Below, piece after piece: positions 8,948-61,581 of a DNA stretch of 64,000 nt. Every line of letters starts with the position of its first letter. Position 1 is the first letter of the stretch. Both the position numbers and the translations under genes were made by a program. This DNA comes from a virus. Lineage: Duplodnaviria > Caudoviricetes. The DNA is taken from the IMG/VR virus record IMGVR_UViG_3300014205_000015, positions 1 to 64,000 of that record, one strand, 5' to 3'. Below the pieces are notes generated by a model. It worked only from the letters and a program-made list of their open reading frames with translations, had not been told where the DNA came from and did not search any database.

Positions 8948-9295
8948 TTAGCCTTGTGGTTCCTCCAGGACTTGGCATTCTGGAAAGTATCCTCCGTCCT
9001 TGCTTATCCAGCTACAAGAGCTGTCCGCATGAACCTTGAATCCATAAACATTGGACACTATCCACCTTCCATCGCTAGTCTTGAACCTTGCCTTACACGG
9101 TGCTCGCTTCAGGTCGTCTATTGTCGCGTCTCGCCAGACGTAGACGGGTTCTAGGATGGGGCGGCTAGAGAATTCATAGTCTACATCTGCCTTCGATATT
9201 ACATCTAGTGACTCCAAGAACTTCTCTCCATGTTTGGGCTTTCTGTACGCTACTACCTTGTACCCTGGTGGGTCTGGGATCTCTATGAGGCTCAT
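8948..9295 (-). CDS. hypothetical protein
   Basis: Coupled to upstream gene; phage-like composition. Confidence 0.65.
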   Translation of the reverse strand: MSLIEIPDPPGYKVVAYRKPKHGEKFLESLDVISKADVDYEFSSRPILEPVYVWRDATIDDLKRAPCKARFKTSDGRWIVSNVYGFKVHADSSCSWISKDGGYFPECQVLEEPQG

Positions 9296-9771
9296 GCTAG
9301 GCTCTCTTTCTGTGATGCTTGGTACTGCTGTCGAATAGCCTCTTCACGTCCCAGCTTCTCCTGTGCGCGTTTCTGAGACTCCGCGGCTTGTTCCGCTTCT
9401 ATCTGCTGGCGGGCTTCCTTGATTTCGGCTTCCAGTTCTTCGACCATAGCCAGAACGTCAGCCTGCCACGGACCATCCATAGTCCAGCTGCCACAGGACC
9501 AGATACCCACAAGTTCGCCTTTGTCGACAACAGGGAACGGATTACCACTCCCCCGAGAGTCGTTGCAACCAGCGCGCACAATAGCGTCCGGTTCGGTTAT
9601 TAGCGATATGTGGCAGTGGTTGTCTGTGTGCCAGTGGTCCACAATTAAGAACTGCCCTCGCCTCACCCAGCATGGATGGCTACGGTAGGCAGAACCGTCA
9701 CCTACGCCCTTGAGCTTTAATGCCCTGGCTGCACTTGGTAGGTGATGCACTTGTTTATTCTTTAATTCCAT
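9292..9771 (-). CDS. hypothetical protein with C-terminal coiled coil
   Basis: Likely start MELKNK at 9771 after AACACTAATAGGGAAGG. Confidence 0.7.
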   Translation of the reverse strand: MELKNKQVHHLPSAARALKLKGVGDGSAYRSHPCWVRRGQFLIVDHWHTDNHCHISLITEPDAIVRAGCNDSRGSGNPFPVVDKGELVGIWSCGSWTMDGPWQADVLAMVEELEAEIKEARQQIEAEQAAESQKRAQEKLGREEAIRQQYQASQKESLA

Positions 9772-9821
9772 CTCTCTCTTTCCTTCCCTATTAGTGTTTG
9801 TTTCCGAAATTGAACTGGGCG

Positions 9822-10184
9822 CTAGGCGGATTCCGCATCGAAGACTTTGTCGTCGAACCACGTTTCCACAAACCCAGCCACCCATACAACAGTGTCTGAG
9901 TCTATTCCGTTGTCCGGTGTCGCTGCATCCGGTTCCCGAGACTTGATAGCTTCGACACATTCTTCTTTGAGCTGCTTGAGCAGTTCAATCTTATCGCAAA
10001 TTTCCATACATTCCTCCCATCCGCCTTCGTGTTGTTCAATCTTAAAAACTCTCTTGTTTGTCCGGTTGTACTCTTGTAGCAGGTTTAGACGAAACTCTCT
10101 TTCGCCAATACCGTCCGGCATGACGTGCCTGCCTACTCGCAAGCGATGCCTAGTTCTCCGCCTGTAAAAAACTGAAAACCTCAT
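9822..10184 (-). CDS. hypothetical protein
   Basis: Follows a copy of the AACACTAATAGGGAAG motif. Confidence 0.65.
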   Translation of the reverse strand: MRFSVFYRRRTRHRLRVGRHVMPDGIGEREFRLNLLQEYNRTNKRVFKIEQHEGGWEECMEICDKIELLKQLKEECVEAIKSREPDAATPDNGIDSDTVVWVAGFVETWFDDKVFDAESA

Positions 10185-10225
10185 AGCAATCCCAGATTTC
10201 CTTCCCTATTAGTGTTGCGGGTGCA

Positions 10226-10486
10226 TTACCACCGTAGATTAGACGTTATTAGCTTGCCGAACTCTTCGTCGGTCATGTTCATAATATCTTCAGTAGTTAC
10301 GCCAGCATCATTTAACGCCTTGCACGCTAGTTGGCAATCTCGCTCGCTGGCAAATGGACAATCCCTATTGTCGAAGTAGTACGAGCGAGTCCCGTCACTC
10401 ACTCGCCAAGCGTCTGGGTAGTTTATTCCTACGTCGTAAAGCGCTCCAAAGTGTGGTTGCCACCGCAATGACTCGCTATTCCTCAT
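10226..10486 (-). CDS. hypothetical protein
   Basis: Follows a copy of the AACACTAATAGGGAAG motif. Confidence 0.65.
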   Translation of the reverse strand: MRNSESLRWQPHFGALYDVGINYPDAWRVSDGTRSYYFDNRDCPFASERDCQLACKALNDAGVTTEDIMNMTDEEFGKLITSNLRW

Positions 10487-10564
10487 GGTTTGCTTCCCTA
10501 TTAGTGTTTAGCGCCACTAGGGACGCTTTAGGACTCGATTCTGTGCTATTGCCTGACTCATGTT

Positions 10565-27519: not shown

Positions 27520-27990
27520 ATGAGCGAACGATGGGACAATCATTTCTTGCGATTGTGTCAGGACCATGCAAGGATGTCGAAAGACCCAAGCACACGAGTT
27601 GGCGCTGTAATAGTCGGACCTGACGGGGAAATTAGGTCGGCTGGATTCAACGGTTTCCCACGCGGAATTCTCGATAGCGACGAACGCCTGAACGACCGAG
27701 ACACAAAGCTAAAGCTGATGGTCCACGGGGAAATGAACGCGATTTTAGCAGCTGCGAGAGTTGGGACGCCGGTGAAGGGATGCACGCTGTACCTCGCGGC
27801 TACTGATTCATCGGGGATTGTGTGGGGCGGTCCTCCGTGTGTGCGCTGTACAGTTGAAGTAATTCAGGCAGGCATAACAGAAGTGGTGTCTTACCCCAAA
27901 CGCAGTGTTCCATCAAAATGGCATGAGGATTTGGCAATGGCTGAAACTCTTTTACGTGAAGCGGGGATTGGTTACAGATGCGTCGATTAG
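27520..27990 (+). CDS. dCMP deaminase (ComEB-like zinc deaminase)
   Basis: SKDPST.VGAVIV, GFNGFPRG, HGEMNAI, PCVRC. Confidence 0.92.
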   Translation: MSERWDNHFLRLCQDHARMSKDPSTRVGAVIVGPDGEIRSAGFNGFPRGILDSDERLNDRDTKLKLMVHGEMNAILAAARVGTPVKGCTLYLAATDSSGIVWGGPPCVRCTVEVIQAGITEVVSYPKRSVPSKWHEDLAMAETLLREAGIGYRCVD

Positions 27991-28783: not shown

Positions 28784-29269
28784 ATGGCTATTGTTGAAAA
28801 AGCAAGAGTGAAATGGGCAGATAAAGAGGCGGCAATTCGGTCGCTCGAGTCTGGCGGTAAAATCGACCCACTGGATTTGATTGAAGCCGCTCGCGATCCT
28901 GAACATCCGTGTCACTCTGATTTCACTTGGGACATCGACCAAGCGGCTGCCGAACGGTGGCGGGATCAAGCCCGTGAGTTGATTCGCTCGTGCAAGTTTG
29001 AAGTGCGAGTGGAAGACGTAGGCAGCAGGGTTTGCATGTACGTTCCATCTGGCGACGAAGATGCAACATTCGTGTCACTACCAAAGATTCGCAGCAAGGC
29101 TCAGGCGTCTGCGGTTGTTCTAGCGGAGGTTGCCATGTTGCTTGGGAATGCTTCTCGGGCATACGGGATAGCGTTGTCGAAAACGAACATTGTTGGCGCT
29201 GACGTTGTTGTTCAGTTGAAAGCGATTCGCGAACTGGTGGCTACGCTGAAGGCTGAGCTAGAGGATTGA
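28784..29269 (+). CDS. accessory protein of the array system (helical, possibly DNA-binding)
   Basis: DLIEAARDPEHPCHSDFTWD...A...ARELIRS; first gene of the operon, directly followed by array 1. Confidence 0.75.
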   Translation: MAIVEKARVKWADKEAAIRSLESGGKIDPLDLIEAARDPEHPCHSDFTWDIDQAAAERWRDQARELIRSCKFEVRVEDVGSRVCMYVPSGDEDATFVSLPKIRSKAQASAVVLAEVAMLLGNASRAYGIALSKTNIVGADVVVQLKAIRELVATLKAELED

Positions 29270-29275
29270 TTCATT

Positions 29276-29593
29276 GGTCAAGGAATGTCGGGGCGTGGTT
29301 CGGCGTGGTGTTTCAGGTTTCGGTATGCTTGGGCGGTCATGGAGAGGTCGGGCTAGGTGCGCTCTTGCGAGTCGAGTCGAGGCGGTCGAGTCCGTGCGGG
29401 GTGCGGAGTGCTCTGGTTGGGTCGGTCCAGGTTGGGTTCGGCGGTCGCGGTTAGGAATGGCGTGCTGCGGCGAGTCGGGGCTCGTTCCGGTTGGGCGGTC
29501 AAAGTGGGTCAAGGCTTGGTGCGAAGTGGTGCGTCCTGGAAAGGCGGTCGAGGCGGGGATTGGAGTGGCCCGTATTGGTCCGACAAGGCGGTC
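29276..29593 (+). repeat. 5-nt periodic guide-like array 1 (6 units, GGTC-NN-[GGY-NN]n-GGC)
   Basis: Units start at 29276, 29335, 29384, 29443, 29497, 29546; lengths 59, 49, 59, 54, 49, 44 (all 5n+4). Confidence 0.92.
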
Positions 29594-29681
29594 AGAGAGA
29601 GAAGGTTTTTGGTTTGGAGAGTGTTTCTCCAGACTCCTACACAACAGGGGTGTTTCACCCCGCAATTAAGGAGAAGCCATT

Positions 29682-30446
29682 ATGGCAAAAGCATCTGGTG
29701 TTTTGGAAGCGATTGAAGTTGAACCACTACGAGTTGGCAGTATGCAAGTCTGGCTGCGTGGTATCACGCCGCTGATCTGTAATCGATTGGCGGCAAAGGC
29801 ACGGCGCGAGCTGTTGCTTCCGAAGGGACGAAAGTCGACGGCGGAAAAGCAGCAATCGCTGAAGCATGATCCGGTAGCTGAGTTCCGAGACAGCATGAAT
29901 GTGCGATCTGGTGTTGGACCTACACGAGTAGTGTTTCCTGCGCCCGCAGTGAAGGGTTCTATGGCTACTGCCGCGCTGGAGACGAAAGGCACGAACAAAA
30001 CGCAGATTGGTCGTTTGGTTCGTGTGGCTGGTTATTCACTGGATGTCTACGGAATACCAGAATTATTCATGGCTATTGTTCGTTCGGCGGACATGGCTCG
30101 GACGCCCGACGTTCGGACGCGAGCGATCTTGCGCGAGTGGTGCATGCCTGTTACCGTTCAGTACGTCAAGCCGCAGATGTCTGAGCAGGCTATTATGCAA
30201 TTGCTTGCCAACGGCGGAATTATCATCGGAGTAGGTGATTTTCGTCAAGAAAAAGGCAAAGGCGATTTTGGCTGCTACGAGGTCGTCACCGAAGCCGATT
30301 GTAAGGACATTATCAAAAATGGCGGGTTGAAGCAGCAAGACGCTGCGATCAAGACTCCCGTCTGCTTCGACAGTGACACTGAAGAACTTTTAGGCTGGTT
30401 CCAACAGGAAGTTAAAGTTAGAGGAAAGGGAGAACTGGTTGCCTAA
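29682..30446 (+). CDS. Cas7/RAMP-like RNA-binding protein (VIPR-like effector candidate)
   Basis: N-terminal beta strand 'WLRGITPLI', FPAPAVKGS helix, RTRA..W core, C-terminal Gly-rich loop GGIIIGVGDFRQEKGKGDFG; flanked by both arrays. Confidence 0.75.
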   Translation: MAKASGVLEAIEVEPLRVGSMQVWLRGITPLICNRLAAKARRELLLPKGRKSTAEKQQSLKHDPVAEFRDSMNVRSGVGPTRVVFPAPAVKGSMATAALETKGTNKTQIGRLVRVAGYSLDVYGIPELFMAIVRSADMARTPDVRTRAILREWCMPVTVQYVKPQMSEQAIMQLLANGGIIIGVGDFRQEKGKGDFGCYEVVTEADCKDIIKNGGLKQQDAAIKTPVCFDSDTEELLGWFQQEVKVRGKGELVA

Positions 30447-30455
30447 CTGTCAATT

Positions 30456-31106
30456 GGTCGCGGAGAGGTATGGCAACATAAGTCACGGTCCGGCGAGTCA
30501 TGTCCGGGCGGTCATGGAATGGTTGGGCACGGCACCATATGGTATGTCGCGGCTTGGCGTGGCGGTCCCGGTTGGGTCCGGTAAAGCTGGTCGGGGCGGG
30601 GTGTTGCGAGCCCGGGTTTGGCGGTCGGGGTACGGTTCGGCACGGCGGGTCGGAGCATGGAATGTTGCGGCGGTCGCGTCGAGGTGCGGTGCGTTTGGGC
30701 GAGTCCAGGCGCGTCGGGGTATGGTTGGGCGGTCGAGGTGAGGAAAGGCTGCGCTAGTTCAGGCGAGTCATGGCACTGGCGGTCGCGGTATGTCCTGACT
30801 AGTCATGTGAGGAAAGGCGAGGCGGGGCGGTCGAGTCGGGTCTTGGAGAGGTTCGGTCCGTTGCGGTCTGTCCGGGCGGTTTGTCAAAGCTAGGCTGCGC
30901 GTGGCGGTCATGGTGACGAGAGGCTGGGTATGGTACGTCGCGGCGGGTCTGGGGCCGGTGAGGCGGTCAAGATTCGTCAGGTCGCGGACAGGCGGGGCGG
31001 GGTACGCTTAGGCGGGCCTAGTCCTGGCGGTCGCGTCGGGGTCTGGAGTGGCACGGTCGGGCAAGGTGAGTCGAGCTCTGGCGTGGTGAGTATCGGCAAG
31101 CCGGTC
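30456..31106 (+). repeat. 5-nt periodic guide-like array 2 (12 units)
   Basis: Units start at 30456, 30510, 30564, 30623, 30672, 30731, 30781, 30829, 30878, 30906, 30965, 31029; junction GGC-GGTC. Confidence 0.92.
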
Positions 31107-31127
31107 GTGATTGACTGTTAAGAGGTC

Positions 31128-33059
31128 ATGCAGCACAATTGCTGCATGACCTCTCCTTTTTTTGATTTAGTCCCAAAAGACCCAATTGAGAATCTCCGTT
31201 GGCGCATTCGTTGCCGCGAGCGTGCATTGGCTGATAAGCGGTTTCGAGACTCGCTATATCAAGCGTGCATGAGTGATCTTTGTTTCTGGATGGCATTTGC
31301 CTGTTGGGGATACGACCCGCGAGCCCGCTTCAAGATCGTTCCATTTGTACCCTATCCACATCAACAAGCTGTGTTCGTGGCGATGGATGAAGCCATAAGC
31401 ACTGCCGAACGTGAAGAACGATCGGTCGACGTGATCCTGGACAAAAGTCGGGCTCAAGGTGGATCTTTTGGATATCTTTGGGTCGACCTTCGGCGCTGGC
31501 TGCGCGATCCAATGTTTTCAGCAGGTTTTGTTACGAAAAATGAAGATTCGATTGATTCAAAGAGCGACTCATCGACGGTGCTGTGGAAAGTGGCATGGGC
31601 GATTGAGCGATTGCCTTTCTGGATGAAGCCCAATTACGAACGGCATCTTGGTCAGCACACTTTCATTAACAACGACAACGGTTCGTTATTGCGAGGATAC
31701 TCTGCAGGGCAAGACGTGGCAGCCGGTGGCCGTACGACTGTGTTCACAGTGGACGAAGCTGGCGCGAGAGACTTCGTTTCAGGTGGCAAAGACGAAGCGG
31801 TTCAGGAGTCTATTCAAGACGTGTCCAACTGCATTCGCATGGTCTCTGCTCGTTACGTGGATGCAGGTGTCTTTCACGAAGCCTGCGAAAACCCAGACAC
31901 GAAAAAGAACGGTATTCATCTTATACTGGACTGGAAAGACCACCCCGCTCAAAGCAAGCACTCTTACATTGTGCGAGAGGGAATCGCGGTTGCCATAAAG
32001 CCGGAAGATCAAGCGGCGGTCACGGAATACCACCGAAAACACCCTGACCTGCGATCCCGACTGGAAAGAAAAGGATTTAAATTTGAAGTGGTTGTTCGCA
32101 GTCCGTGGTACGACTCTCGATGTTTGCGCCCGACAGCCACCCCGCGACTGATAGCTTCGCAGCTCGACCGCAACCCTCGCGGAGCAGTAGGTAAAGTTTT
32201 CGCATCAGACCTCTTGGACCGCATGAAGCGAGAGCACTGCAAGGGTCCAGTTTGGGTGGGCAATCCAGTATTTGACTCAGAAACCTGCAAACTAACGGGA
32301 TTGATTCCCAGGGATGACGGCTTGCTGAAACTGTGGTTCAAGCCGGGCATCGACAACTCACCGCCGCTGGGACCGTTCACCGCGGGATGCGACATCGCTT
32401 CGGGTGGAGTTGGGGCGTATTCCTCAAACTCGGTCATAACGGCGCTGGACGACAGAACCGGGGAGCAAGTCTTGGAGTACACGGTCAAGGGACTCGAGCC
32501 ACGACCGTTTGCACGCCGGGTGGTTGGGCTGTGCATGTGGCTTAGAAACGCACTGCTTGGCTGGGAGGATTCCGGGGTGTCTGGTGGTTTTGCTAAGGAA
32601 ATCATGGAAGTTCTTTATTATGGTTCCGTGTTCTATCGGGACGTAAACCAGCTCGGTTCCCAGAAGAAAAGCCGCAAGCCTGGCTGGCCGTGCCGTGACG
32701 CAGACAAAGCGGACGATTTTGAGCAAATGGCGCTGGCGATGGAGACTGGGAAGTTCGTTCCGCGTTCCGAGGAAATGATTGTCGAGTGTTCTGAATATGA
32801 GTGGGACGGCACCAAAATCATTCACGCACCGTCGAAAAACAAGGGGGCGGCTGACAAGAATCACGCCGACCGCGCTATAGCAATGGCAGGCTGTTGGAAG
32901 GTCTTTAGCACCGATAATGCAACCCGTAAGATTGACACAGACGTGGAAAACGGTCAGAATCCAGAGTACGGCTCGTTTTTATGGCGAGAGCAGCAAGAGC
33001 GCCGGAACGTGAAAACGGGTAGCCCGAAGTTCGGGATTAGGGACATTATTGGACGCTAA
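31128..33059 (+). CDS. terL: terminase large subunit
   Basis: PYPHQ, Walker A-like KSRAQGGS, Walker B VDEAG, RNase H-like GCDIASG, HADRAIA. Confidence 0.92.
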   Translation: MQHNCCMTSPFFDLVPKDPIENLRWRIRCRERALADKRFRDSLYQACMSDLCFWMAFACWGYDPRARFKIVPFVPYPHQQAVFVAMDEAISTAEREERSVDVILDKSRAQGGSFGYLWVDLRRWLRDPMFSAGFVTKNEDSIDSKSDSSTVLWKVAWAIERLPFWMKPNYERHLGQHTFINNDNGSLLRGYSAGQDVAAGGRTTVFTVDEAGARDFVSGGKDEAVQESIQDVSNCIRMVSARYVDAGVFHEACENPDTKKNGIHLILDWKDHPAQSKHSYIVREGIAVAIKPEDQAAVTEYHRKHPDLRSRLERKGFKFEVVVRSPWYDSRCLRPTATPRLIASQLDRNPRGAVGKVFASDLLDRMKREHCKGPVWVGNPVFDSETCKLTGLIPRDDGLLKLWFKPGIDNSPPLGPFTAGCDIASGGVGAYSSNSVITALDDRTGEQVLEYTVKGLEPRPFARRVVGLCMWLRNALLGWEDSGVSGGFAKEIMEVLYYGSVFYRDVNQLGSQKKSRKPGWPCRDADKADDFEQMALAMETGKFVPRSEEMIVECSEYEWDGTKIIHAPSKNKGAADKNHADRAIAMAGCWKVFSTDNATRKIDTDVENGQNPEYGSFLWREQQERRNVKTGSPKFGIRDIIGR

Positions 33060-52132: not shown

Positions 52133-53530
52133 ATGCCAATAACATTCAGACACCAAGCAGCCGGGGTAGTACCTCCTTCCAATGAGACTACTAGGAAGTA
52201 TGGGCAGTCGCTTGTCTTACAGCAGCAGCAACAGAAGTATGCCGGTCAACAAGCAGGATACGACCGATTGTTCCGAGCTGGTTCGCAGCTGCAGCAGCAG
52301 GACTGGCAGATGGGCAGGGATAAGGCGCAGAACGACTTCCAGTTGGGCAGGGACAAGCAGCAGTTCGATTGGAAGCAGCAAGAGGCGGAAGCGGCTAGGC
52401 AGCAAGGGTTTCTCGACGAGGCTAGGAAACAGAGCAGCCGATTCATTCTTGACGCGATTGACAAAGGGGAGTTTGACCCTGGTACTGCCCGAGAGCTACG
52501 GCAGAATCTGGTAGCCGAGTCAGAGGTGCTAGGCAATCCGCGACTGGACGCCACGCAGAGAGCCGAAGCGATTCAGAAGCTTCGTGCGCAGCGGTCAATG
52601 CTGTTAGCCAATCGCGCTCCAAAGGCACCAGAGCCAACACCACAGGAACAATTCGACCAGGGTGTTGTTACAGGTCCAGATGGCGCAAAGTATCGTCGTA
52701 ACTCAAAGGGAGACTTCGAGCCTCTACCAGTACAACCTCAGCAACCAGCACCACCAGCGACCGCTGATGATGCGTTTAAGGCTGACCCTAAACTGAGGAA
52801 ACAGTACATTGATGACGCGGTAAACGTACTCACAGAAGGCGGAACGAAGTCGCTTACTGTCGATATTCGCAAGCAAGCCGCCGAACTGGCAAGGGAACTG
52901 TACGACAACGACAACCCGCAACCAGCACAGACGCCAGCTACCACACCTGCTGCTGGGCAAGCCCCACCCGCTGCATCAGGAGCCTTTTCGCCATTACTGA
53001 GTGCGATTCAGGGTGCTGCGGCTGGAATAACGGGGCAGACCCCTGCTACTATTGGGCAGTCAGCGGACATACCAATAGCATCTCCAGATCCAGGCCGACC
53101 GCCAGCACCATCGACAATGCCCGCGCAAAACCAGTGGGCGGACGTGGCAACACCACCGCCACCGGCACAAGTTTCGCCATCGCCACCACTGAGTTCGCCT
53201 GCCGGAGCGAGTCCACAGCAGGCTCCAGCTACATCGCAAAGCGGACTACCACAAGCTGAAAAGCCAGACTTTGGCGCTATGGTAGCCAGTGCAAAGGACG
53301 ATGCAGACAGAGCGTTCGTCAGCAAGATGCAAGGTGTGTACGAGGGGCAGTCGCCTGCTATTCAGTCTGCAATAAGTGTCCTTATGAGCCCAGACTCGCT
53401 TGACGAGGATGCTGCACGCGCTCTTGCGTATCTAAAGGAAAATGGCATTGATATTGACCAACTGGCTGCGACTCCGAAGCTACCGAAGAAGAAAAGCAAC
53501 AGGGATTGGCAGAGCGGAAAGGGAATGTAG
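52133..53530 (+). CDS. internal virion (ejection) protein, Gln/Pro-rich
   Basis: Low-complexity helical and Pro-rich segments before the giant gene. Confidence 0.7.
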   Translation: MPITFRHQAAGVVPPSNETTRKYGQSLVLQQQQQKYAGQQAGYDRLFRAGSQLQQQDWQMGRDKAQNDFQLGRDKQQFDWKQQEAEAARQQGFLDEARKQSSRFILDAIDKGEFDPGTARELRQNLVAESEVLGNPRLDATQRAEAIQKLRAQRSMLLANRAPKAPEPTPQEQFDQGVVTGPDGAKYRRNSKGDFEPLPVQPQQPAPPATADDAFKADPKLRKQYIDDAVNVLTEGGTKSLTVDIRKQAAELARELYDNDNPQPAQTPATTPAAGQAPPAASGAFSPLLSAIQGAAAGITGQTPATIGQSADIPIASPDPGRPPAPSTMPAQNQWADVATPPPPAQVSPSPPLSSPAGASPQQAPATSQSGLPQAEKPDFGAMVASAKDDADRAFVSKMQGVYEGQSPAIQSAISVLMSPDSLDEDAARALAYLKENGIDIDQLAATPKLPKKKSNRDWQSGKGM

Positions 53531-53532
53531 CT

Positions 53533-56500
53533 ATGGGAACGATAACTGACAGAATAAGACGACTTGGCAGGCAGGATGCAGCCCCAAGTGAGGATGGCGC
53601 AGGTATTGGTCAAATCGATGAACGCGAGCAAGCTATTATCGACAGGTATACAAGTGCAGCGCCAGGCGTGAGCTTCTTGCAAAAAGCTGCCCGTGGGTCG
53701 GCTAAATTAGAAATAGATACTCGGCGACAGCAGCGAGCCTACGCCGAGAAACCAACGTCACCGCTCGCAGCTATAACGGTGGATCCAGCCAGGGAGATGG
53801 TTGCGAATCTTGGGGACCGAGCAAAGGTGCTCGACACCTACCGTAAGCTGTCACCTGAGCAGCGCCAGGAAGCATTGAGTTTGGCTCCTGGTATTGCACA
53901 GCAGTTAGGCGATGACCGAGGCGGAGTAGTTGGGCGTACTCTCGGCGCAGTAAGTCGTGGGATAAGTCATGGCGTATCGCAGCCACTCGCAGAGTTAGTT
54001 GGACTAGGCGGAACGCCAGAGGAGATTGAGTACATTCGCCAATTGGATGCGGCAGCGTCTCAAGAGTTTAGTCCTGCCCGTCCAGGCGACCCGTGGTATG
54101 AGCGTGGACCGCTACAAGCCGTGGAGATGGCTCCGTGGATGGCAACAGTGGTAGGCGGCGCTGGCGTAGGGCGTGCTGCGGCTACGGGGATTGCTGGGCG
54201 GCTTGGCATGGCAGCCCGTGGCACAGCGGCAGCCGCGAAGACTGGAGAGCTTGCGGGTATCACCACGGCAGCATTCCCCGGTCAGTACGCGCAAGAGGTG
54301 GACCAGCTTAAAGAACTGGGCATGGAAGACGGGACGAACCTGCGCCTGCTTGCTGGCGGGACAGCGGCAATTGCTGGTCTTATTGAGGGAATCGTACCCA
54401 ATCCGTTCAAGGCTGGACCCGTTCCGTTGACCGAAGGGGCTGTTAAGGCTGCCCGTCAGTACCTCTGGGAAGCAGCTAAGAGGGCTCCTGGGGAAATGTC
54501 TGAAGAATACCTACAGGGCGTTACAAGCGGTCTGGGCAGCCATGTAGCGCAATACCTCGATGAGAATGCTGAGGATAGGTCAATCGCAGACGCATTCCAG
54601 ACAGGCTGGGAACAAGCCAAAGAAGCAGCGCTACCAATGGCGTTCCTGCTTGGTGTTCCTGCTGTCGGCGGTGCTGGGCTATCGGCAGCGCGAGCACGGC
54701 GATTGACTCGTTTGCAAGAGGTTCTTGCTAAGGGACCAGTTTCCAGGAAAGCCGGTCGGGAACTTGGCATTGAAGGCAACCAGGATGAACGCACGGCGAT
54801 AGCTGCCGCAGAGAAGGCACAGCTAGAGCAAGAAGCAGCTCAGGTCAGCGCAACACCACCACTAACACAGGGACCAACAGATGCCAGCCAAGTACCAGCG
54901 GATGAAGCACGCAATGATGTCCAAGGGGATGGAGGAGAAGGAAGCCAAGTCGATAGCGGCAGCGAAGTATATCAGCCAGGGCAAGAGCAAGGAGTCTCGC
55001 AGCCAGAGAGCAAAGAGCCTGAAGCACAGGAAGTACAAGTAGCGCCATGGCAACAGACTCCCAGTGAATACGTTGCCGGCGAGACGGACGCAGATGCGGT
55101 AGCTGTCAGGAGGGCATCACACCCACAAGCTGTGAAGCGAGCGCTAACGGAAGGAGAGCAGGTTCCGCGTGCAGTGCTAGATGCTTATGCGAACAACACT
55201 TGGGCGAAGAAGGCTATCGAGCGGCTGTATCCTAACGAGCCAGGGCAGTTACCTACAGAGCCAGAAGCAGCAGCCACTCCCCCAGTCGCTCCAGCTACAG
55301 AAGTATCGCAACAACCATCGGAGGGGTCAGTGTCCACAATTGTGGACAAAGCCGAGAAACTACCAGTACCAGCCACACCAGAGCAGGCAGAGCCAGCAGC
55401 AGTCCCAGGAAGTCGGTTTGCAGGCAAGTCTGATAAGGAACTAGCTTCTATTCAGCAAATGTACGAAGACAACATCAAGACTAAAAAAGCCAAGAATGAG
55501 AAAGTCTCGCCTGAATGGGAGCGAGGGCTTGATGAAGTCAGAGCATTACGGGCTGGAGCGGATCCACAAACAGAAATAGTGACGGATACTAGCGTCTATG
55601 GGCATCCACAAAACCCGTCGTCGCGAGAGGGGCACCAAAATCTAATCCCAATCAAATTTGGCGCTGATGCAGACTTAGCGTGGCGATGGGACGAGATTCA
55701 AAAGCGAGCAGCCGTTCTGATGGCTGAGATAGGTGATGCGCAAAACCGGGCGTTGCGTGGCAAGACACCAGCGATACGCAAGAAGGCTTCTGACGAATTA
55801 AAGTCAGCTAATCATTCGGACAAGGAACAGGAACTCAAAGACCTGAAGGAAGCCCAGGCGTATCTCAATGAACTGAGTAAGAAACAGAGTGGACTAACTA
55901 AAAAGCAAGCAGTAGAGACAGGAAAGCCGTCGACGGCTGGGCTTTCGGAGGAAGTAATCGGTTCCCCGCCCGTTAGTCCCGACGCACTGGGGGAAACCCC
56001 AGAGACGAGTATGGGCAAAGCGGTAGGTAATGAACTGCCCTCCGAAGCCCGCGCCGAGGAAACTGAGCCGCAGCAGCCTGACTCCAAGTGGCAGTCCGAA
56101 ACCAGAACACTCCTAGAGGCTGTCCCAGCACTCAAGGGCGCCAATGTCGAACCAGACGAGAAGGCTGGAACGGTCAAGGTAACACGCCCAGACGGGCTCT
56201 CTACGACGATTCACTTCAATGCCGATAAAGAACTGGCAGAAGCGGCTAAGTCGAAACTGCGCAATCCTGAGTCGATTCACGGCTGGTATGTACGGAAGCC
56301 AGGAGAAGCCGAGGGACGCATCTACGTGCGCTCCGACGCCAACCACAGCAACATCCTTAACCATGAAGTAATGCACTGGCTTGAAGATGAAGGTGTTGTA
56401 ACCAAAGAGGAAGTCGAGAAGTACGGCGGACGGGAAGCAATTGCCGAGAAGTACGGCAAATGGGCTGAGCTAAAGAAGCGGAAAAAGGATTCAGTGTTCC

Positions 56501-59500
56501 AGCGAATCTACGACACGCTAGAGCCAGTGTTCTCAGCACAGCGCAGATTCTTTGAGGATGTGTCTAAGCGGCAAGCAGCCGAGAAACCGTCCGAGAAGCG
56601 CCGTGGTCCTAAAGACCAGCCAGGGGCACGAAGGATGGAGCCCACGGAAGAAGGTCGACCTGCGGATGGAAAGCCGATAATGCCAGGGGACCGTTTCTTG
56701 ACCAATACAGGTCGCGAAACAACGCCATACCCCAAGTACAGCGGCGCTACGAATCGCCAAGTAATCAATGCTGAGAAGAAGTCACAGCTATGGCTGATTG
56801 AGAATGCTATCGCTGAGGCTGAGTCTCGCGGTGACGACTTCAACCTCACGACATTCCGAGGTGAGCTTGAGGATGCACGCAAAGGAAAACTCCCTCCAGC
56901 GTCAAAGGACTCTGCGACCCTCTACGTGTTTGGAGAGGACATCCCAAAGGTTCCTAAACCATTCCTGAAGGAGCCAGGGGCAAAACCACTTTCGTCCGCA
57001 ACGGAACAGGCTCGGGAGAACCTTCGCAGGCGAGGTAAACGCAAGCCATCCCAGGCGGAACTGGACGCAGAAACAGCATCGGTGATTCGTGAGCGAGAGG
57101 CAGACAACAAGGTTCGTCAGGACTTCCAGTCGGACAGGGATGCCCAAAAAGCACAGGAAGCAAGGCGTGAGTTCGTCGGAAAGCAAAAGGCTGCTGCGAA
57201 CCCAGCTACCGTCGATTCGCTCGGTTATGGCGACATCGCTCAGGTGAACGATGACATCGAACGCGGACGGGTGAGCTACGAAGACGCAATCAAAGTAGCA
57301 GACGCATTCGTGGAAGCGGGTTATCTTCCACAGCTTCGTCGCGACCAGATCCGTAAGCCTACCCAAGCCAGTGCAAATCAAGTTAACGTCGATTCTGGCT
57401 CAGAAAGTAAAGTTAAGCCAGCAGAAGACCGTGTGAAAAATTTTACACAAGACTTACCTAGCTTAACACCGGAAGGGAAGGCTACTGGGAAACAAGTAGG
57501 GAACAAGCCAAAGCCAAAGCCAGAGCTAGCACCTGACACGGCACGTATTCAGGCTGAGCGGGAAGCAAGGGAGCAAGCCAAGGCAGGGAAGAAACAGCGA
57601 GTGGCTCCAGAAGGGTACGCTGCGCTACCAGAGATGACTCGCGCAAAGTTCGAAACAGCATGGGATGGAAGCGACCAGCAAGCGATGAAGGACCTACTTC
57701 ATTTGCCCAATAAGTCTCTGAGAGCTGAGTTCGAGCGGCGCACAGAACGCAAGCTACCGCGAACCATCAAGGGCACGTCAGAAGTTGTCGAGCAGGTTTA
57801 TGCTGCGCGAGCCAAGCCAAGTGAAGCGGTAGGAGTGGAAGCGGAACCGAAAAACGAAGAAACACAGCCCGCCCCCGTTTCTGTCAAAGCCGACTTCATA
57901 GAGCTTAAAGGTCAGAACGCGACTGGAGTGAAGCAAACGATTCGGGTAATCGCTGGAGAACGCACGTTACTGATGGAACGCAGTAAGCACGACAGCGAGT
58001 GGTCGATTAGGGAAGGGACAAAGTACACCGGCGCAATCAAAGGCAAAACACCAGTAAAGACAGGCGGTGAAATCCTCGCTAGTGGGATTGGCGAAACCAA
58101 AAGAGCAAAGGAAGTCGCACAGCAGATTATCGACGGCACTTTCGACAAGGACGCTGATAGTCTGTTTGTGCGAGAGGACACAAGAAACATTGGACTCCCT
58201 AATGCTAAGCTTGCCGCCGCAATAAAAGATTACCAGATAGCAAGGCGAGGCAGTTTCGCCAAGTTGCTTCGTGAGGAAAGACTGTACACCGATGGTCGTT
58301 TGCTGATGAAAGTGAACGACAAGGACCGAGACGCGATTCTGAAGGGGATTGGAGAGACTGACGAAGGCAGGGAGATGGGTGTCGTTGCGCAAATGATGGT
58401 CGACGGCAAGAAGGCGCTAAGTCGCTCAGCTAACGCCATGAAACCAATCGGATACCGTGGAGGCAACCTAACAACACGAACCGTTGTGCTTCAAAGCCAA
58501 GATGGCGATGCTGTAACCCTCGACAAGTCTTTACACGACACGGTTCTGAAAAAGCACCCCGACGCAGTGCCGTACTTCAGGGAAGAAGGTCGTCCGGTGT
58601 CCTACGCCAGTAACGACGACGTGGTGGCGATTGTGATGCCGATGAACATGGACAAGCCAGACGCCAAATTAAAGGAGTTGGTGGCTGGTAAGTATGACTT
58701 CGAGGCTGAAGCCGCCGTAGAGGACGAGACTGGCGATGGAGAGGGTGGCGCTGAGTTCGGGAAGGACGTTGGGTCGACGCTGGGAATCACGTCAGGCGTT
58801 CCGCTGGCTGGTCCACACCGAGGAATGGGGCGTTCTGTGCGGCATTTCTTCCAGCGGTTCTTTACCTCTCAGGGAGAACTTCCAGCTGACGTGTATGATG
58901 CAAAGGTACGGAAGGAAGGGCGGGCTGCCAAGGAAATGAACCGTCTTCGGAATCGCGCAACTGACCTCCGGCGTGGCATCAAGAAAGCCTTGAACGGCAG
59001 GGAATTGACTCAGGCAGATATCGAGAGAATGAACGCCGTGCTTCGCGGAGAGAAGGCTATGACCACTGTGCCGGTAGCAGTACGCGCACCACTCAAAGCG
59101 ATGCGAGACCACATTGATTCCCTATCAAGCCACTTGATTCTGGAAGGCGTGGCGCAAGGCGACTTAGTGGGAATCATCACGGAAAGCATGGGCGTCTATG
59201 CCACCCGGTCATATCGCGTATTCGACAACCCCAAGTGGCGCGACCAAGTTCCTAGTGCTGTTCGCAATCGTGCAGTAGCCGCTATTCGGGCGCTCGACCC
59301 ATCCAAGTCTGACGCTGAGGTAGCAGGAATCCTAGAATCGCTACTGTTCCGCGGTGCAGCAGATACCCCCGTGGCACTTCTGAAGGGTTCGAAGCTGGGA
59401 AGCAAGGACTTGAGCACGTTCATAGCACGAAAAGACATTCCGGAGTGGCTTCGGGACTTGTGGGGGGAGTACAAGGATGCTGGTGTGAATTACGCTCGCA

Positions 59501-61581
59501 GCGTGTTCAAGATGGCGCACTTGCTTGCCAATCAACAGTTCTTAAATGAGGTACGAGACGCTGGGCTAGGCAAATGGCTTCGCACGGACGAGGAAGGACC
59601 AATCATCAACGAGTATGGCGAAATCATCACGCCTATCGCAGCCGAGAGCAGTTCTGTCATGGAACCTCTAAACGGACTGCTCACTACGCCAGAAATAAAG
59701 AAAGCATTCGAGCGTTTCGATTCTCCTGGTGCCATGCCGGAGTGGCTGCGGGTGATGATGTCGGTGAATTACGCAGTCAAATACGGAAAGACCGTAGGGT
59801 CGGTAATGACGCACGTTCGTAATACTGTCTCTAACGTAGGGTTCGCAGTAGCCAACGGGCACTGGCGGCTTAGTAAGGCTGGAAGGGCGGTGTGGGGCAC
59901 AGCGACAGGAACATTCCAGCTTTCTGATGCAAAGTTCCGTGAATACTACAACCGACTCGCAGAACTGGGGATTGTTGGAGAAGACGTTCGAGCTGGCGAG
60001 CTAAAGGATGCGCTGCGGGACGCTTCGCAGGCAGATATCGACGAGTTCCTGTATAACCGCGAAGCGCGCCACGCAAAGAGGTTGGTCGGCATGGGGAGGG
60101 CTGGATTCAGGTTCCTAAACTCCCTATACCAAGCCGAGGATGGCGTTTGGAAAATCTACGCATGGGAGAACGAGAAGGCTCGCTACGCCAAGGCGTATCC
60201 AGGATGGTCGGAGCAGAAGGTTGAGGAGCACGCAGCCAATATTGTCCGAAACACCTATCCGACATACAGCAAGATCCCTGAAGCGATTAAAGCGCTTCGT
60301 CGGTTCCCGTTAGTTGGTACGTTTGTCAGCTTCCCGTCTGAGGTGGTTCGAACGACGTTCCACACTGTCGCGCTGGGCGTTGAGGAGATGCAATCGCCGG
60401 AAACACGGGCTATTGGAGCGCAAAGACTGGCTGGTACAGTGATGTCCATTGGAATACTGTCTGTGTTATCCCGCGCCATGATGGCGATGTACGGTATTGA
60501 TGATGACGAGGACGAGGACTTGAGGTGGTTTGTTCCTCCGTGGCAGGAGAATAGCCGATTCGTCTACCTTAACAAGCCGCAGGACGCCACGTTCCATTTT
60601 GTAGACTTGGGCTACTCCGACCCGCACGCATACCTCACTGACTCCGTGGTTGCGTTCATGCGAGGTGGCGACTGGAAGGACAGGCTAGGGAAAGCTACTG
60701 CGGAATTCCTTAGTCCATTTGCGTCGGAAGAGATATTAGCAAAGGCTCTAATGGACCTACGCAGTAATGCTGGCGACAAGATTTACAACACAAGGGATGA
60801 GATTGGGGAGCAGGCTAAGGATATTGTTGCGCATCTGTGGACCAGTGCTCTGGAACCAGGGACCGTTTCATCGGTGCGTCGAATCGTAACAGCCATAGGA
60901 GGAACTGACCCATCCAAGAGCGTGCGGGATGAAGTTTTAGCCGTCGCGACTGGGCAGCGACTACAGAAAGTCGATGTCGAGCATTCTCTTGGATTCCGTG
61001 CCAGGGACTTCGGTAAGACGCTGACTCAGATTCAAGGTATTGCCCGCAAGACTGTCACCTCGCGCGGAACAGCCACCGGCGCAATGGTCGCAACTGACTT
61101 GGCCCGCATGGAGAGGCTGCGGCTTGCGGCGTTTTCGGAAATGCAGCAGATCGCTGGGGCAGCGAGACGACTGGGTGTACCAGAGGAGTCTATTCGGACG
61201 ATGTTGACTGCGGAACTGCCGGACGATGTTGCGGAACAGTTGATGACGGGTGACTATTCATCCTACGAGATGACGCCCGAGACAGTGCGACAGATGATGG
61301 ACGCGAAGCCGGAGGAATTTATGCAACGTTTCTCCGCATGGCACGGACAACGGACGCCAGAGGCGATACGGTCATACGTTGGCCAGAGGCTTGCAAATAG
61401 CGAGCCAGCTGATATTAAGGGCGAACTGGATTTGCTGGGAATTACGCTTGAGGAGTGCAAGCAGGCACTGAAGGATTACTGGAAGTTTCGAGAGTGGCCG
61501 ATAAGTGAAAAAGGCATAATGGTAGACGCTTTGCAGAAAAGGTTTCGGAAACTGGAGGCACTTTACAAAACCGAGAACTAA
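53533..61581 (+). CDS. giant internal virion / large polyvalent protein (about 2680 aa)
   Basis: Gly/Ala helical N-terminus, HEVMH zincin-like motif, TGRETTPYP...WLIENA..EA..RGDDFN domain, helical C-terminus with RFPLVGTFVSF motif. Confidence 0.85.
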   Translation: MGTITDRIRRLGRQDAAPSEDGAGIGQIDEREQAIIDRYTSAAPGVSFLQKAARGSAKLEIDTRRQQRAYAEKPTSPLAAITVDPAREMVANLGDRAKVLDTYRKLSPEQRQEALSLAPGIAQQLGDDRGGVVGRTLGAVSRGISHGVSQPLAELVGLGGTPEEIEYIRQLDAAASQEFSPARPGDPWYERGPLQAVEMAPWMATVVGGAGVGRAAATGIAGRLGMAARGTAAAAKTGELAGITTAAFPGQYAQEVDQLKELGMEDGTNLRLLAGGTAAIAGLIEGIVPNPFKAGPVPLTEGAVKAARQYLWEAAKRAPGEMSEEYLQGVTSGLGSHVAQYLDENAEDRSIADAFQTGWEQAKEAALPMAFLLGVPAVGGAGLSAARARRLTRLQEVLAKGPVSRKAGRELGIEGNQDERTAIAAAEKAQLEQEAAQVSATPPLTQGPTDASQVPADEARNDVQGDGGEGSQVDSGSEVYQPGQEQGVSQPESKEPEAQEVQVAPWQQTPSEYVAGETDADAVAVRRASHPQAVKRALTEGEQVPRAVLDAYANNTWAKKAIERLYPNEPGQLPTEPEAAATPPVAPATEVSQQPSEGSVSTIVDKAEKLPVPATPEQAEPAAVPGSRFAGKSDKELASIQQMYEDNIKTKKAKNEKVSPEWERGLDEVRALRAGADPQTEIVTDTSVYGHPQNPSSREGHQNLIPIKFGADADLAWRWDEIQKRAAVLMAEIGDAQNRALRGKTPAIRKKASDELKSANHSDKEQELKDLKEAQAYLNELSKKQSGLTKKQAVETGKPSTAGLSEEVIGSPPVSPDALGETPETSMGKAVGNELPSEARAEETEPQQPDSKWQSETRTLLEAVPALKGANVEPDEKAGTVKVTRPDGLSTTIHFNADKELAEAAKSKLRNPESIHGWYVRKPGEAEGRIYVRSDANHSNILNHEVMHWLEDEGVVTKEEVEKYGGREAIAEKYGKWAELKKRKKDSVFQRIYDTLEPVFSAQRRFFEDVSKRQAAEKPSEKRRGPKDQPGARRMEPTEEGRPADGKPIMPGDRFLTNTGRETTPYPKYSGATNRQVINAEKKSQLWLIENAIAEAESRGDDFNLTTFRGELEDARKGKLPPASKDSATLYVFGEDIPKVPKPFLKEPGAKPLSSATEQARENLRRRGKRKPSQAELDAETASVIREREADNKVRQDFQSDRDAQKAQEARREFVGKQKAAANPATVDSLGYGDIAQVNDDIERGRVSYEDAIKVADAFVEAGYLPQLRRDQIRKPTQASANQVNVDSGSESKVKPAEDRVKNFTQDLPSLTPEGKATGKQVGNKPKPKPELAPDTARIQAEREAREQAKAGKKQRVAPEGYAALPEMTRAKFETAWDGSDQQAMKDLLHLPNKSLRAEFERRTERKLPRTIKGTSEVVEQVYAARAKPSEAVGVEAEPKNEETQPAPVSVKADFIELKGQNATGVKQTIRVIAGERTLLMERSKHDSEWSIREGTKYTGAIKGKTPVKTGGEILASGIGETKRAKEVAQQIIDGTFDKDADSLFVREDTRNIGLPNAKLAAAIKDYQIARRGSFAKLLREERLYTDGRLLMKVNDKDRDAILKGIGETDEGREMGVVAQMMVDGKKALSRSANAMKPIGYRGGNLTTRTVVLQSQDGDAVTLDKSLHDTVLKKHPDAVPYFREEGRPVSYASNDDVVAIVMPMNMDKPDAKLKELVAGKYDFEAEAAVEDETGDGEGGAEFGKDVGSTLGITSGVPLAGPHRGMGRSVRHFFQRFFTSQGELPADVYDAKVRKEGRAAKEMNRLRNRATDLRRGIKKALNGRELTQADIERMNAVLRGEKAMTTVPVAVRAPLKAMRDHIDSLSSHLILEGVAQGDLVGIITESMGVYATRSYRVFDNPKWRDQVPSAVRNRAVAAIRALDPSKSDAEVAGILESLLFRGAADTPVALLKGSKLGSKDLSTFIARKDIPEWLRDLWGEYKDAGVNYARSVFKMAHLLANQQFLNEVRDAGLGKWLRTDEEGPIINEYGEIITPIAAESSSVMEPLNGLLTTPEIKKAFERFDSPGAMPEWLRVMMSVNYAVKYGKTVGSVMTHVRNTVSNVGFAVANGHWRLSKAGRAVWGTATGTFQLSDAKFREYYNRLAELGIVGEDVRAGELKDALRDASQADIDEFLYNREARHAKRLVGMGRAGFRFLNSLYQAEDGVWKIYAWENEKARYAKAYPGWSEQKVEEHAANIVRNTYPTYSKIPEAIKALRRFPLVGTFVSFPSEVVRTTFHTVALGVEEMQSPETRAIGAQRLAGTVMSIGILSVLSRAMMAMYGIDDDEDEDLRWFVPPWQENSRFVYLNKPQDATFHFVDLGYSDPHAYLTDSVVAFMRGGDWKDRLGKATAEFLSPFASEEILAKALMDLRSNAGDKIYNTRDEIGEQAKDIVAHLWTSALEPGTVSSVRRIVTAIGGTDPSKSVRDEVLAVATGQRLQKVDVEHSLGFRARDFGKTLTQIQGIARKTVTSRGTATGAMVATDLARMERLRLAAFSEMQQIAGAARRLGVPEESIRTMLTAELPDDVAEQLMTGDYSSYEMTPETVRQMMDAKPEEFMQRFSAWHGQRTPEAIRSYVGQRLANSEPADIKGELDLLGITLEECKQALKDYWKFREWPISEKGIMVDALQKRFRKLEALYKTEN
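55331..55348. repeat. palindrome copy 6 (inside giant gene, encodes STIVD)
   Basis: TGTCCACAATTGTGGACA. Confidence 0.9.

What the first reader, a model, noticed from the sequence alone, without database searches (positions are those of the whole stretch)
30965..31562. Variable dinucleotides decode as codon positions 1-2: two units spell a relative's terminase
Seen: unit 31029 gives NN = GC GG CT GT AC CG AA GA GA CT GT GA TC AA. Read as NNx codons this is A-G-L-V-T-R-N/K-E/D-E/D-L-V-D-S-K. This phage's terL at 31521-31562 reads AGFVTKNEDSIDSK (10/14 dinucleotides identical, in codon phase). Unit 30965 gives AA TC AG GC CA GG GG AC TA GG TA CT = K-S-R-A-Q-G-G-T-Y-G-Y-L, versus own terL Walker-A region 31443-31478 KSRAQGGSFGYL (8/12). 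Rough hand binomial (p=1/16 per dinucleotide, about 1.3e5 positions): about 1e-4 and 1e-2 chance hits per guide, and both land in the same gene in frame. Inference: the target is NNxNNx..., skipping the wobble base, which blocks synonymous escape. The guide has mRNA polarity, so it would pair with the DNA template strand, not the mRNA. The likely targets are terL genes of related competing phages.
Basis: partly seen in the sequence, partly recalled or inferred. Interest (0 to 1): 0.95.

Follow-up and report, generated by a model that had tools for sequence, protein, structure and literature searches.

The report
Phage VIPR guide RNAs targeting terminase
The odd five-base repeats in front of this phage's terminase gene are guide RNAs of a VIPR system, a phage-borne RNA-guided gene silencer first described in 2026.

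Summary
Units at 30965-31028 (U9) and 31029-31102 (U10) are runs of NN+GGY pentamers. Read with one skipped base, their NN strings match this phage's terL in frame: 8/12 and 10/14 dinucleotides (order shuffles reach this 4/1000 and 1/1000 times). They match relatives' terL better (11/12 and 11/14). Skips of 0, 2, 3 or 4 bases give only background.

The locus is a VIPR system, as described in bioRxiv 10.64898/2026.04.26.720920, .720927 and 2026.10.15.759431:
- The 254-aa gene between the two arrays is a Vipr protein. Its profile hits PDB 'SUSP1 Vipr protein' (E 7.6e-7), its model has a Cas7/Csm3 fold, and the GGY-binding residues are conserved.
- A 161-aa neighbour accompanies vipr in every related locus that extends far enough to show it.
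- All eight supported guide-target pairs in this clade hit terL or vipr of relatives, on the sense strand and in codon phase.
- At the terL sites the skipped wobble base is the variable one (identity 0.42, against about 0.8 at positions 1-2).
- This phage's own genes match at 67-71% of NN, below the papers' 80% threshold.

No perfect match to U9 or U10 exists in IMG/VR or the JGI metagenomes. Verdict: a new member of a known kind. This scan's first-stage notes had already flagged the same locus.

The parts
28784..29269 (+). 161-aa accessory gene (vap-like), phrog_15946
   Evidence: A homologue lies next to vipr in the 11 related loci that extend far enough to show it (L016-L019, L021-L025, L027, L028); L015 and L020 do not reach upstream of vipr and L026 gave no hit. 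It sits upstream in close relatives and just downstream in distant ones. The model has pLDDT 81 with no convincing fold match; the best are PadR-like regulators at E 0.4.
29276..29593 (+). vrRNA array 1: six units of 8-11 NN+GGY pentamers, each opened by GGTC
   Evidence: Parsed. No target was found in the sequences held.
29682..30446 (+). vipr gene (254 aa), the RAMP/Cas7-like guide-binding protein
   Evidence: The profile hits PDB 36pp 'SUSP1 Vipr protein' at E 7.6e-7. The AF2 model (pLDDT 80.6) hits Csm3, type VII Cas7 and Cas7-11 at Foldseek prob 1.0. R147 and D186-F187-R188 align with SUSP1 R138 and D177-W178-R179. Of 14 homologous loci, 13 carry same-strand pentamer arrays.
30456..31106 (+). 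vrRNA array 2: about 11-12 units joined by GGC|GGTC junctions; irregular between 30860 and 30905
   Evidence: Across 160 pentamers of both arrays, G opens the triplet in 93%, Y closes it in 88%, and all 16 NN occur.
30456..30509 (+). unit U0, a guide against vipr of relatives (codons ADMNKTPDVR, the thumb region)
   Evidence: 19/20 nt against vipr of L019/L020, and 15/20 against own vipr at 30087-30116.
30965..31028 (+). unit U9, a guide against the terL Walker-A region (KSRAQGGTYGYL)
31029..31102 (+). unit U10, a guide against terL (AGLVTRNEDLVDSK)
31121..31163 (+). 15-bp hairpin plus T-run ending the array; it overlaps the first codons of terL
   Evidence: The hairpin is conserved in L003, L004 and L011.
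31128..33059 (+). terL (large terminase), carrying the partly matched own sites
   Evidence: tblastn hits annotated TerL of phages BcepB1A, 9NA and Sasha; phrog_5989.
31443..31478 (+). own terL site matched by U9 at 8/12 NN
31521..31562 (+). own terL site matched by U10 at 10/14 NN
30237..30269 (+). own vipr G-loop codons (DFRQEKGKGDF), matched by the single vrRNA unit of relative L011
   Evidence: 20/22 nt here and 21/22 in L018-L020.

Best explanation
The locus 28784-31163 is a VIPR (Viral Interference Programmable Repeat) system. It has a vap-like gene, a first vrRNA array, the vipr gene and a second vrRNA array ending in a terminator at the terL start. By analogy with the solved SUSP1 system, one Vipr protomer binds each pentamer, buries the GGY triplet and presents the NN dinucleotide. 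The filament then pairs with one strand of double-stranded DNA, skipping every third base, and blocks transcription. Units U9 and U10 are guides whose NN strings spell codon positions 1-2 of two conserved stretches of terL, including the Walker-A region, as found in related phages. U0 does the same for vipr. The likely role is to silence the packaging gene and the rival VIPR of related phages that share the host cell. The phage's own alleles differ at enough amino-acid-determining bases to stay below the matching level counted as targeting. Shown here: the anatomy, the skip-1 code, the codon phase, the better match to non-self, and the homology and fold of Vipr. Inferred from the papers and not tested on this phage: expression and processing of the units, filament formation, DNA binding and silencing.
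For: - Vipr identity: the profile hit to 'SUSP1 Vipr protein', the Cas7/Csm3 fold, and conserved thumb Arg and G-loop D-[F/W]-R residues.
- Protein-array linkage: 13 of 14 vipr-homologue loci, down to 40% identity, have same-strand pentamer arrays, whereas terL relatives without vipr at that position mostly have none.
- The code: only a skip of 1 gives outliers.
- The targets: 6 of 61 distinct guides exceed every shuffled control. Together with U10 and L015:1449 they give eight supported pairs, all in terL or vipr, on the sense strand, in frame and inside long ORFs.
- Self versus non-self (NN matches): U0 7/10 vs 9/10, U9 8/12 vs 11/12, U10 10/14 vs 11/14, L016/L017 last unit 6/10 vs 9/10.
- Codon position 3 is the variable one at both terL sites.
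- The published mechanism and natural-target patterns, including guides against relatives' vipr and solo vrRNAs, match this picture.
Against: - No perfect NNx match to U9 or U10 exists in IMG/VR or the JGI metagenome contigs. U10's best match is 11/14 NN (79%), just under the papers' 80% cut-off.
- Mismatch tolerance of this Vipr is unknown.
- No expression data could be obtained.
- Units lack the roughly 40-nt structured tail of the characterised type II vrRNAs, so processing and filament capping here are not explained by the solved structures.
- About 85% of guides in this clade have no identified target in the roughly 0.5 Mb of related phage DNA held.
- One guide (L015:1215) matches its own vipr at 8/9 NN.
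Confidence: 0.88

Rival explanations
1. Self-regulation. The guides act on the phage's own terL and vipr through their partial matches, for instance to delay packaging-gene expression, and the better match to relatives is incidental.
For: The array lies directly upstream of terL and downstream of vipr, the two genes it matches. Own matches of 67-71% NN are far above chance. One guide in L015 matches its own vipr at 8/9 NN.
Against: In 8 of 9 guide rows compared, the match to a relative's gene exceeds the match to the phage's own gene; the ninth (L015:1215) ties at 8/9 NN. L011 carries a guide against vipr with no vipr on its 17.9-kb fragment. The papers found no self hit at 80% NN or more and showed lower self than non-self scores.
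Confidence: 0.07
2. Relic guides. U9 and U10 once matched a rival exactly and have since drifted, or the rival is extinct, so they no longer act on any current target.
For: No exact match was found in two very large collections. U10 reads like a mosaic of alleles seen separately in L001-type and L018-type terL.
Against: The pentamer grammar of both units is intact. 11/12 NN to terL of L016-L018 is within the range the papers accept as targeting. Several relatives keep guides against the same terL site (L016/L017 last unit), which argues for ongoing selection.
Confidence: 0.04
3. Chance resemblance, or an artefact of G-rich period-5 composition.
For: The guides are short, and U0 alone is not significant against the phage's own genome (545/1000 shuffles).
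Against: U9 and U10 score 4/1000 and 1/1000 against the own genome. They land in the same gene and frame 78 nt apart, improve to 92% and 79% NN in relatives, and only at a skip of 1.
Confidence: 0.01

Closest known systems
VIPR systems (Vipr protein plus vrRNA), type II of Escherichia phage SUSP1 and the Pseudomonas fulva prophage (bioRxiv 10.64898/2026.04.26.720920 and .720927)
   Same: A phage-borne two-gene locus (vipr plus an accessory gene) flanked by intergenic arrays. The guides are alternating GGY/NN pentamers, 8-14 per unit here against 9-16 published. Targets are read with one skipped base that falls on the codon wobble position. The targets are competing mobile elements, including rival vipr genes, and self matches stay below 80% NN. 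The thumb Arg and G-loop D-aromatic-R residues that hold GGY are conserved.
   Different: This Vipr is 254 aa, and only about 60 residues align with SUSP1 Vipr (202 aa). Units have no roughly 40-nt pseudoknot tail; they abut through GGC|GGTC. About a third of triplets are GTC, GGA, GTT or GCT rather than GGY. The supported targets are terL and vipr of sibling phages, not satellites or prophage regulators. terL is not named as a target in the main text of either of the two papers searched for it (.720920 and 2026.10.15.759431).
'Staggered vrRNA arrays' of VIPR (fig. S18 of 10.64898/2026.04.26.720920)
   Same: The legend describes vrRNAs taken from positions that overlap by 1 nt, so that the end of one marks the start of the next. 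Here, in the YNNGG frame, the last pentamer of a unit (C-GG-TC) shares its final C with the first pentamer of the next. That gives unit lengths of 5n+4.
   Different: The figure is not held, so the identity of the architecture is inferred from the legend only. Which VIPR type this clade belongs to could not be determined.
VIPR-null solo vrRNAs of SUSP1-family phages (bioRxiv 10.64898/2026.10.15.759431)
   Same: Relative L011 has a single 11-pentamer unit at the same place upstream of terL. It has no vipr on its 17.9-kb fragment, and its guide matches the vipr G-loop codons of relatives at 21/22 nt.
   Different: L011 is only about 30% of a genome, so the absence of vipr from the phage is not shown. 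It belongs to a different phage lineage and has no pseudoknot tail.
Class 1 CRISPR-Cas backbone (Cas7/Csm3 filament on crRNA)
   Same: Both have a RAMP fold. One protomer binds each repeat of the guide, and a thumb breaks the guide-target duplex periodically.
   Different: The period is 5 nt of guide per 3 nt of target, instead of 6 per 6. There is no repeat-spacer array, no cas1/cas2 and no nuclease in the locus.

Membership tests
VIPR | Vipr protein: a minimal RAMP (RRM core, G-loop, thumb) homologous to described Viprs | tested here: met
   hmmsearch of alignment A1 hits PDB 36pp 'SUSP1 Vipr protein' at E 7.6e-7; the single sequence gives E 0.0027. The AF2 model hits Csm3, type VII Cas7 and Cas7-11 at prob 1.0, E 2e-5.
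VIPR | Residues that hold GGY: thumb Arg and G-loop Asp-aromatic-Arg | tested here: met
   The HMMER alignment puts R147 on SUSP1 R138 and D186-F187-R188 on D177-W178-R179 (roles). R147 and R188 are invariant in 23 homologues, position 187 is F or W, and position 186 is D in 20, E in 2 and G in 1. The match is by alignment only; no structure of this protein exists.
VIPR | vrRNA: tandem pentamers of a conserved GGY (or related) triplet alternating with hypervariable NN, at least 4 repeats, next to vipr | tested here: met
   There are 17-18 units of 6-14 pentamers in two arrays flanking vipr. G opens the triplet in 93%, Y closes it in 88%, strict GGY makes up 54%, and all 16 NN are used.
VIPR | Targets follow the 1-nt skip rule | tested here: met
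   Only a skip of 1 gives matches above shuffled and other-skip controls.
VIPR | The skipped base falls on the codon wobble position of coding targets | tested here: met
   All eight supported targets are in frame in terL or vipr. Position 3 identity is 0.42, against about 0.8 at positions 1-2.
VIPR | No self-targeting at 80% NN or more | tested here: met
   The best own-genome matches are 7/10, 8/12 and 10/14 NN. Relative L015 is an exception, with one guide at 8/9 against its own vipr.
VIPR | Adjacent accessory (vap) gene | tested here: met
   A homologue of the 161-aa gene lies next to vipr in the 11 related loci that extend far enough (L016-L019, L021-L025, L027, L028). Whether it is one of vap1-6, or binds DNA, is unresolved.
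VIPR type II (SUSP1 / P. fulva) | Each vrRNA ends in an invariant structured 3' tail (a pseudoknot in the SUSP1 clade) | tested here: not met
   Units abut through a 4-nt GGTC, with a hairpin only at the end of array 2. This fits the 'staggered array' variant named, so the locus is not filed under type II.
VIPR | vrRNAs are expressed and bound by Vipr; the RNP binds dsDNA and represses transcription | not testable with these tools
CRISPR-Cas | Identical direct repeats separating contiguous spacers, with cas1/cas2 adaptation genes | tested here: not met
   No repeat-spacer array is present, and there are no PADLOC or Pfam hits on the neighbouring genes.

The most novel reading that the evidence does not exclude
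This environmental clade has about 1,480 Vipr homologues in metagenomes, all unannotated. It may run a tail-less form of VIPR in which the GGC|GGTC junction alone sets unit boundaries and filament ends. Sibling phages would aim guides at each other's terminase Walker-A codons and at the GGY-binding codons of each other's vipr. That would be a reciprocal arms race, visible as amino-acid escape changes such as this phage's unique TKNEDS for TRNEDL in terL. If neither terL targeting nor this mode of unit definition is covered by the published data sets, it would add a new target class and a new processing or capping solution to VIPR biology.
Probability: 0.3. Interest if true: 0.5.

Novelty: new member of a known kind. 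Interest (0 to 1): 0.3.

Why it matters
The sequence-only reading independently recovered the noncontiguous 'skip the wobble base' code of VIPR, which supports the scan's ability to find real RNA-guided systems. The biological gain is modest. It extends VIPR to a large, unannotated clade of environmental phages, and it gives eight natural guide-target pairs with self versus non-self contrasts. It also points to the terminase ATPase motif and the rival's Vipr core as preferred targets, and it offers a compact tail-less array for studying how units are defined.

Tried and rejected
- Rfam scan of 29500-32000: no family found.
- Pfam and PADLOC on vipr and the 161-aa gene: nothing found.
- TRAP-like or CsrA-like protein-titrating leader RNA: considered at first because of the triplet-plus-2-nt-spacer period and the downstream terminator. 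Dropped because the NN positions carry codon-phased information about other genes, and because the neighbouring protein is a Vipr.
- NNG read as literal codons, or quintuplet decoding: rejected. TA-G would be a stop where the target has Tyr, and AA and GA each match both members of their split codon boxes.
- RNA-guided homing nuclease: no nuclease domain is in the locus.
- Exact-pattern scans for U10 and U9 in viral contigs and metagenome contigs: 0 hits each.
- Fold search of the 161-aa protein: no match with E <= 0.001; profile against PDB sequences: nothing.
- Guides of the second VIPR locus in relative G003: no target above background.
- Targets for U1-U8 and array 1: none above shuffled controls in the roughly 0.5 Mb held. 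The other first-stage notes on patatin, primase and tRNA targets were not tested.
- Supplementary tables of the VIPR paper are not held, so the VIPR type of this clade could not be assigned.
Full report
**What is in the sequence.** Between a 254-aa gene (29682-30446) and terL (31128-33059) lies a 650-nt stretch with no consistent reading frame and a strong 5-nt period in G.
- It parses into pentamers of two variable bases followed by a triplet. Across 160 pentamers of both arrays the triplets are GGC 45, GGT 42, GTC 27 and GGA 14. G opens the triplet in 93%, a pyrimidine closes it in 88%, and all 16 dinucleotides occur at NN.
- Runs of 6-14 pentamers are joined by a 4-nt GGTC that follows a GGC, so unit lengths are 5n+4.
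- A second array of six such units lies at 29276-29593, between a 161-aa gene and the 254-aa gene. An earlier first-stage note led me to it.
- Array 2 ends in a 15-bp hairpin plus T-run at 31121-31163, which overlaps the first codons of terL.

- Read with one skipped base, they match this phage's terL at 31443-31478 (8/12 dinucleotides, 19/24 nt) and 31521-31562 (10/14, 22/28 nt), both in the terL frame. These are the best sites in the whole 77.7-kb genome on either strand; the runners-up score 16 and 18 nt.
- Of 1000 shuffles of the dinucleotide order, 4 and 1 reach these scores. Skips of 0, 2, 3 or 4 bases give only 16-19 nt.
- In U9, Ser and Arg are written with the other codon family than in the gene, so the likeness exists at the protein level too.

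**The guides fit relatives better than self.** I fetched 14 loci with terL relatives and 14 with relatives of the 254-aa gene from IMG/VR, plus whole records of seven of them.

| Guide | Best non-self match | Own gene |
|---|---|---|
| U9 | 23/24 nt, 11/12 NN (terL of L016-L018, KSRAQGGTYCYL) | 19/24 nt, 8/12 NN |
| U10 | 25/28 nt, 11/14 NN (terL of several relatives) | 22/28 nt, 10/14 NN |
| U0 | 19/20 nt, 9/10 NN (254-aa gene of L019/L020, ADMNKTPDVR) | 15/20 nt, 7/10 NN |
| L016/L017 last unit | 19/20 nt, 9/10 NN (same terL site as U10, in L004/L012/L015) | 14/20 nt, 6/10 NN |
| L015:1400 | 17/18 nt, 8/9 NN (terL of L012) | 14/18 nt, 6/9 NN |
| L015:1449 | 17/20 nt, 8/10 NN (terL of L004 and L006-L008) | 13/20 nt, 3/10 NN |
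| L011 single unit | 21/22 nt, 10/11 NN (254-aa gene of relatives) | none on the fragment (best anywhere 14/22 nt, 5/11 NN) |

- Six of 61 distinct guides exceed every shuffled control. With U10 and L015:1449 that makes eight supported pairs. All are in terL or the 254-aa gene, on the sense strand, in frame and inside long ORFs.
- Matches to the phage's own genes are 60-71% of NN, with one exception (L015:1215, 8/9 NN).
- At both terL sites, pairwise identity among 15 distinct alleles is 0.78-0.84 at codon positions 1-2 and 0.42-0.43 at position 3.
- This phage's terL carries TKNEDS where every other sampled allele has TRNE followed by x-L, mostly TRNEDL. These changes lower the match both to its own U10 and to the relatives' guide. 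That they are escape substitutions is my inference.

**What the proteins are.**
- The 254-aa protein has no Pfam or PADLOC hit, but about 1,480 homologues in metagenomes, all unnamed.
- A profile of 23 homologues hits one PDB sequence, 'SUSP1 Vipr protein' (36pp), at E 7.6e-7.
- The AlphaFold model (pLDDT 80.6) matches Csm3, type VII Cas7 and Cas7-11 with Foldseek probability 1.0.
- In the HMMER alignment, R147 and D186-F187-R188 fall on SUSP1 R138 and D177-W178-R179. According to the structural paper these residues hold the two guanines and the pyrimidine of GGY. They are invariant or conservatively replaced in the family.
- Thirteen of 14 loci with a homologue, down to 40% identity, carry same-strand pentamer arrays beside the gene. 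In the distant ones the triplet is mostly GTY and the junction is GGC|AGTC.
- A homologue of the 161-aa gene sits next to the 254-aa gene in the 11 loci that extend far enough to show it. Its fold is unresolved.

**Comparison with what is known.** Three 2026 preprints describe exactly this kind of system: Viral Interference Programmable Repeat (VIPR).
- A phage-borne Vipr RAMP oligomerises on a vrRNA of alternating GGY and NN, one protomer per repeat. It buries GGY and presents NN.
- It binds double-stranded DNA with every third target base skipped, and it silences transcription from either strand.
- The skipped base generally falls on the wobble position, which the authors interpret as blocking synonymous escape.
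- Natural targets are competing elements, including rival vipr genes, and self matches stay below 80% NN. VIPR-null phages keep solo vrRNAs aimed at relatives' vipr.

**Where this locus differs.**
- This locus differs from the characterised type II systems in lacking a structured tail on each unit.
- In the YNNGG frame, the last pentamer of a unit (C-GG-TC) shares its final C with the first pentamer of the next. This matches the legend of the paper's 'staggered arrays', whose vrRNAs overlap by 1 nt. The figure is not held, so this is inference.
- terL is not mentioned as a target in the main text of either paper searched for it. The supplementary data are not held.

**Weak points.**
- Exact-pattern scans for U10 and U9 found nothing in IMG/VR or in the JGI metagenome contigs.
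- Mismatch tolerance is unknown.
- Expression could not be checked.
- Most guides of this clade have no target in the roughly 0.5 Mb of related DNA I held.

**Verdict.** The locus is a new, unannotated member of the VIPR family with a staggered, tail-less array. Its last two guides are aimed at the terminase of sibling phages and its first at their vipr. Interest is limited because the mechanism, the wobble-skipping logic and inter-phage targeting are already described. What remains of value is the terL and vipr-core target choice, the self versus non-self contrasts, and the compact array architecture in a very large environmental clade.

Noticed in passing
window 31121-31163: The array's terminator hairpin contains the Shine-Dalgarno-like AGAGG and the first ATG of terL (31128) in its 5' arm, and a second in-frame ATG (31146) in its 3' arm. 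The T-run encodes the conserved SPFFD. Relatives without an array (L001, L002, L005-L007) start terL differently, with a GTG and no hairpin. terL translation may be coupled to the folding or termination of the array transcript.
   Followed up: partly
window 30445-30454 and 31110-31119: Array 2 is bracketed by a near-perfect 10-nt inverted repeat (AACTGTCAAT / ATTGACTGTT, 9/10 complementary). The motif ATTGAC after the last GGTC is conserved in L003, L004 and L011, even where no pentamer units remain. It also ends the vrRNA tails of the second VIPR type in G003.
   Followed up: partly
L029 (G003:C1) about 9200-10500: The complete 72.9-kb relative behind L010 (terL 68% identical) has no VIPR in front of terL. 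It carries a different, smaller Vipr-like ORF (matched at 9825-9989, E 2.7e-5), flanked by vrRNAs of the classical kind: NNGGC repeats ending in AAGGCAAGGCAAGGTTTCA plus a hairpin tail. No targets were found for its guides in the DNA held.
   Followed up: partly
L023/L024 5310-6010: Distant members of the clade (Vipr 43% identical) use mostly GTC/GTT triplets and a GGC|AGTC junction, with the vap-like gene downstream of vipr instead of upstream. This is a variant consensus of the same array grammar.
   Followed up: partly
L011 3114-3177 and L003 about 525-560: There is a single 11-pentamer unit in L011 and a 5-pentamer stub in L003, at the same position upstream of terL, with no vipr on either fragment. 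These resemble the 'solo vrRNAs' of VIPR-null phages, but both records are fragments (30% and 9% complete).
   Followed up: partly
window 30860-30905, 30731-30830: Three units of array 2 depart from the 5n+4 grammar by single-base insertions or deletions, and one stretch is irregular (GGTCTGTCCGGGCGGTTTGTCAAAGC...). These may be decaying units.
   Followed up: no
window 27520-27990: A 156-aa ORF upstream of the locus hits the PADLOC dCTPase model (E 3.9e-18), so it is a nucleotide-depleting or MazG-like enzyme encoded by the phage.
   Followed up: no
L012 700-3504: The terL relative in L012 spans about 935 codons, against 643 here, which suggests an insertion such as an intein or a homing element in terL.
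   Followed up: no
window 53506-61581: A very long ORF (2691 aa) lies in the structural module. It was not examined.
   Followed up: no
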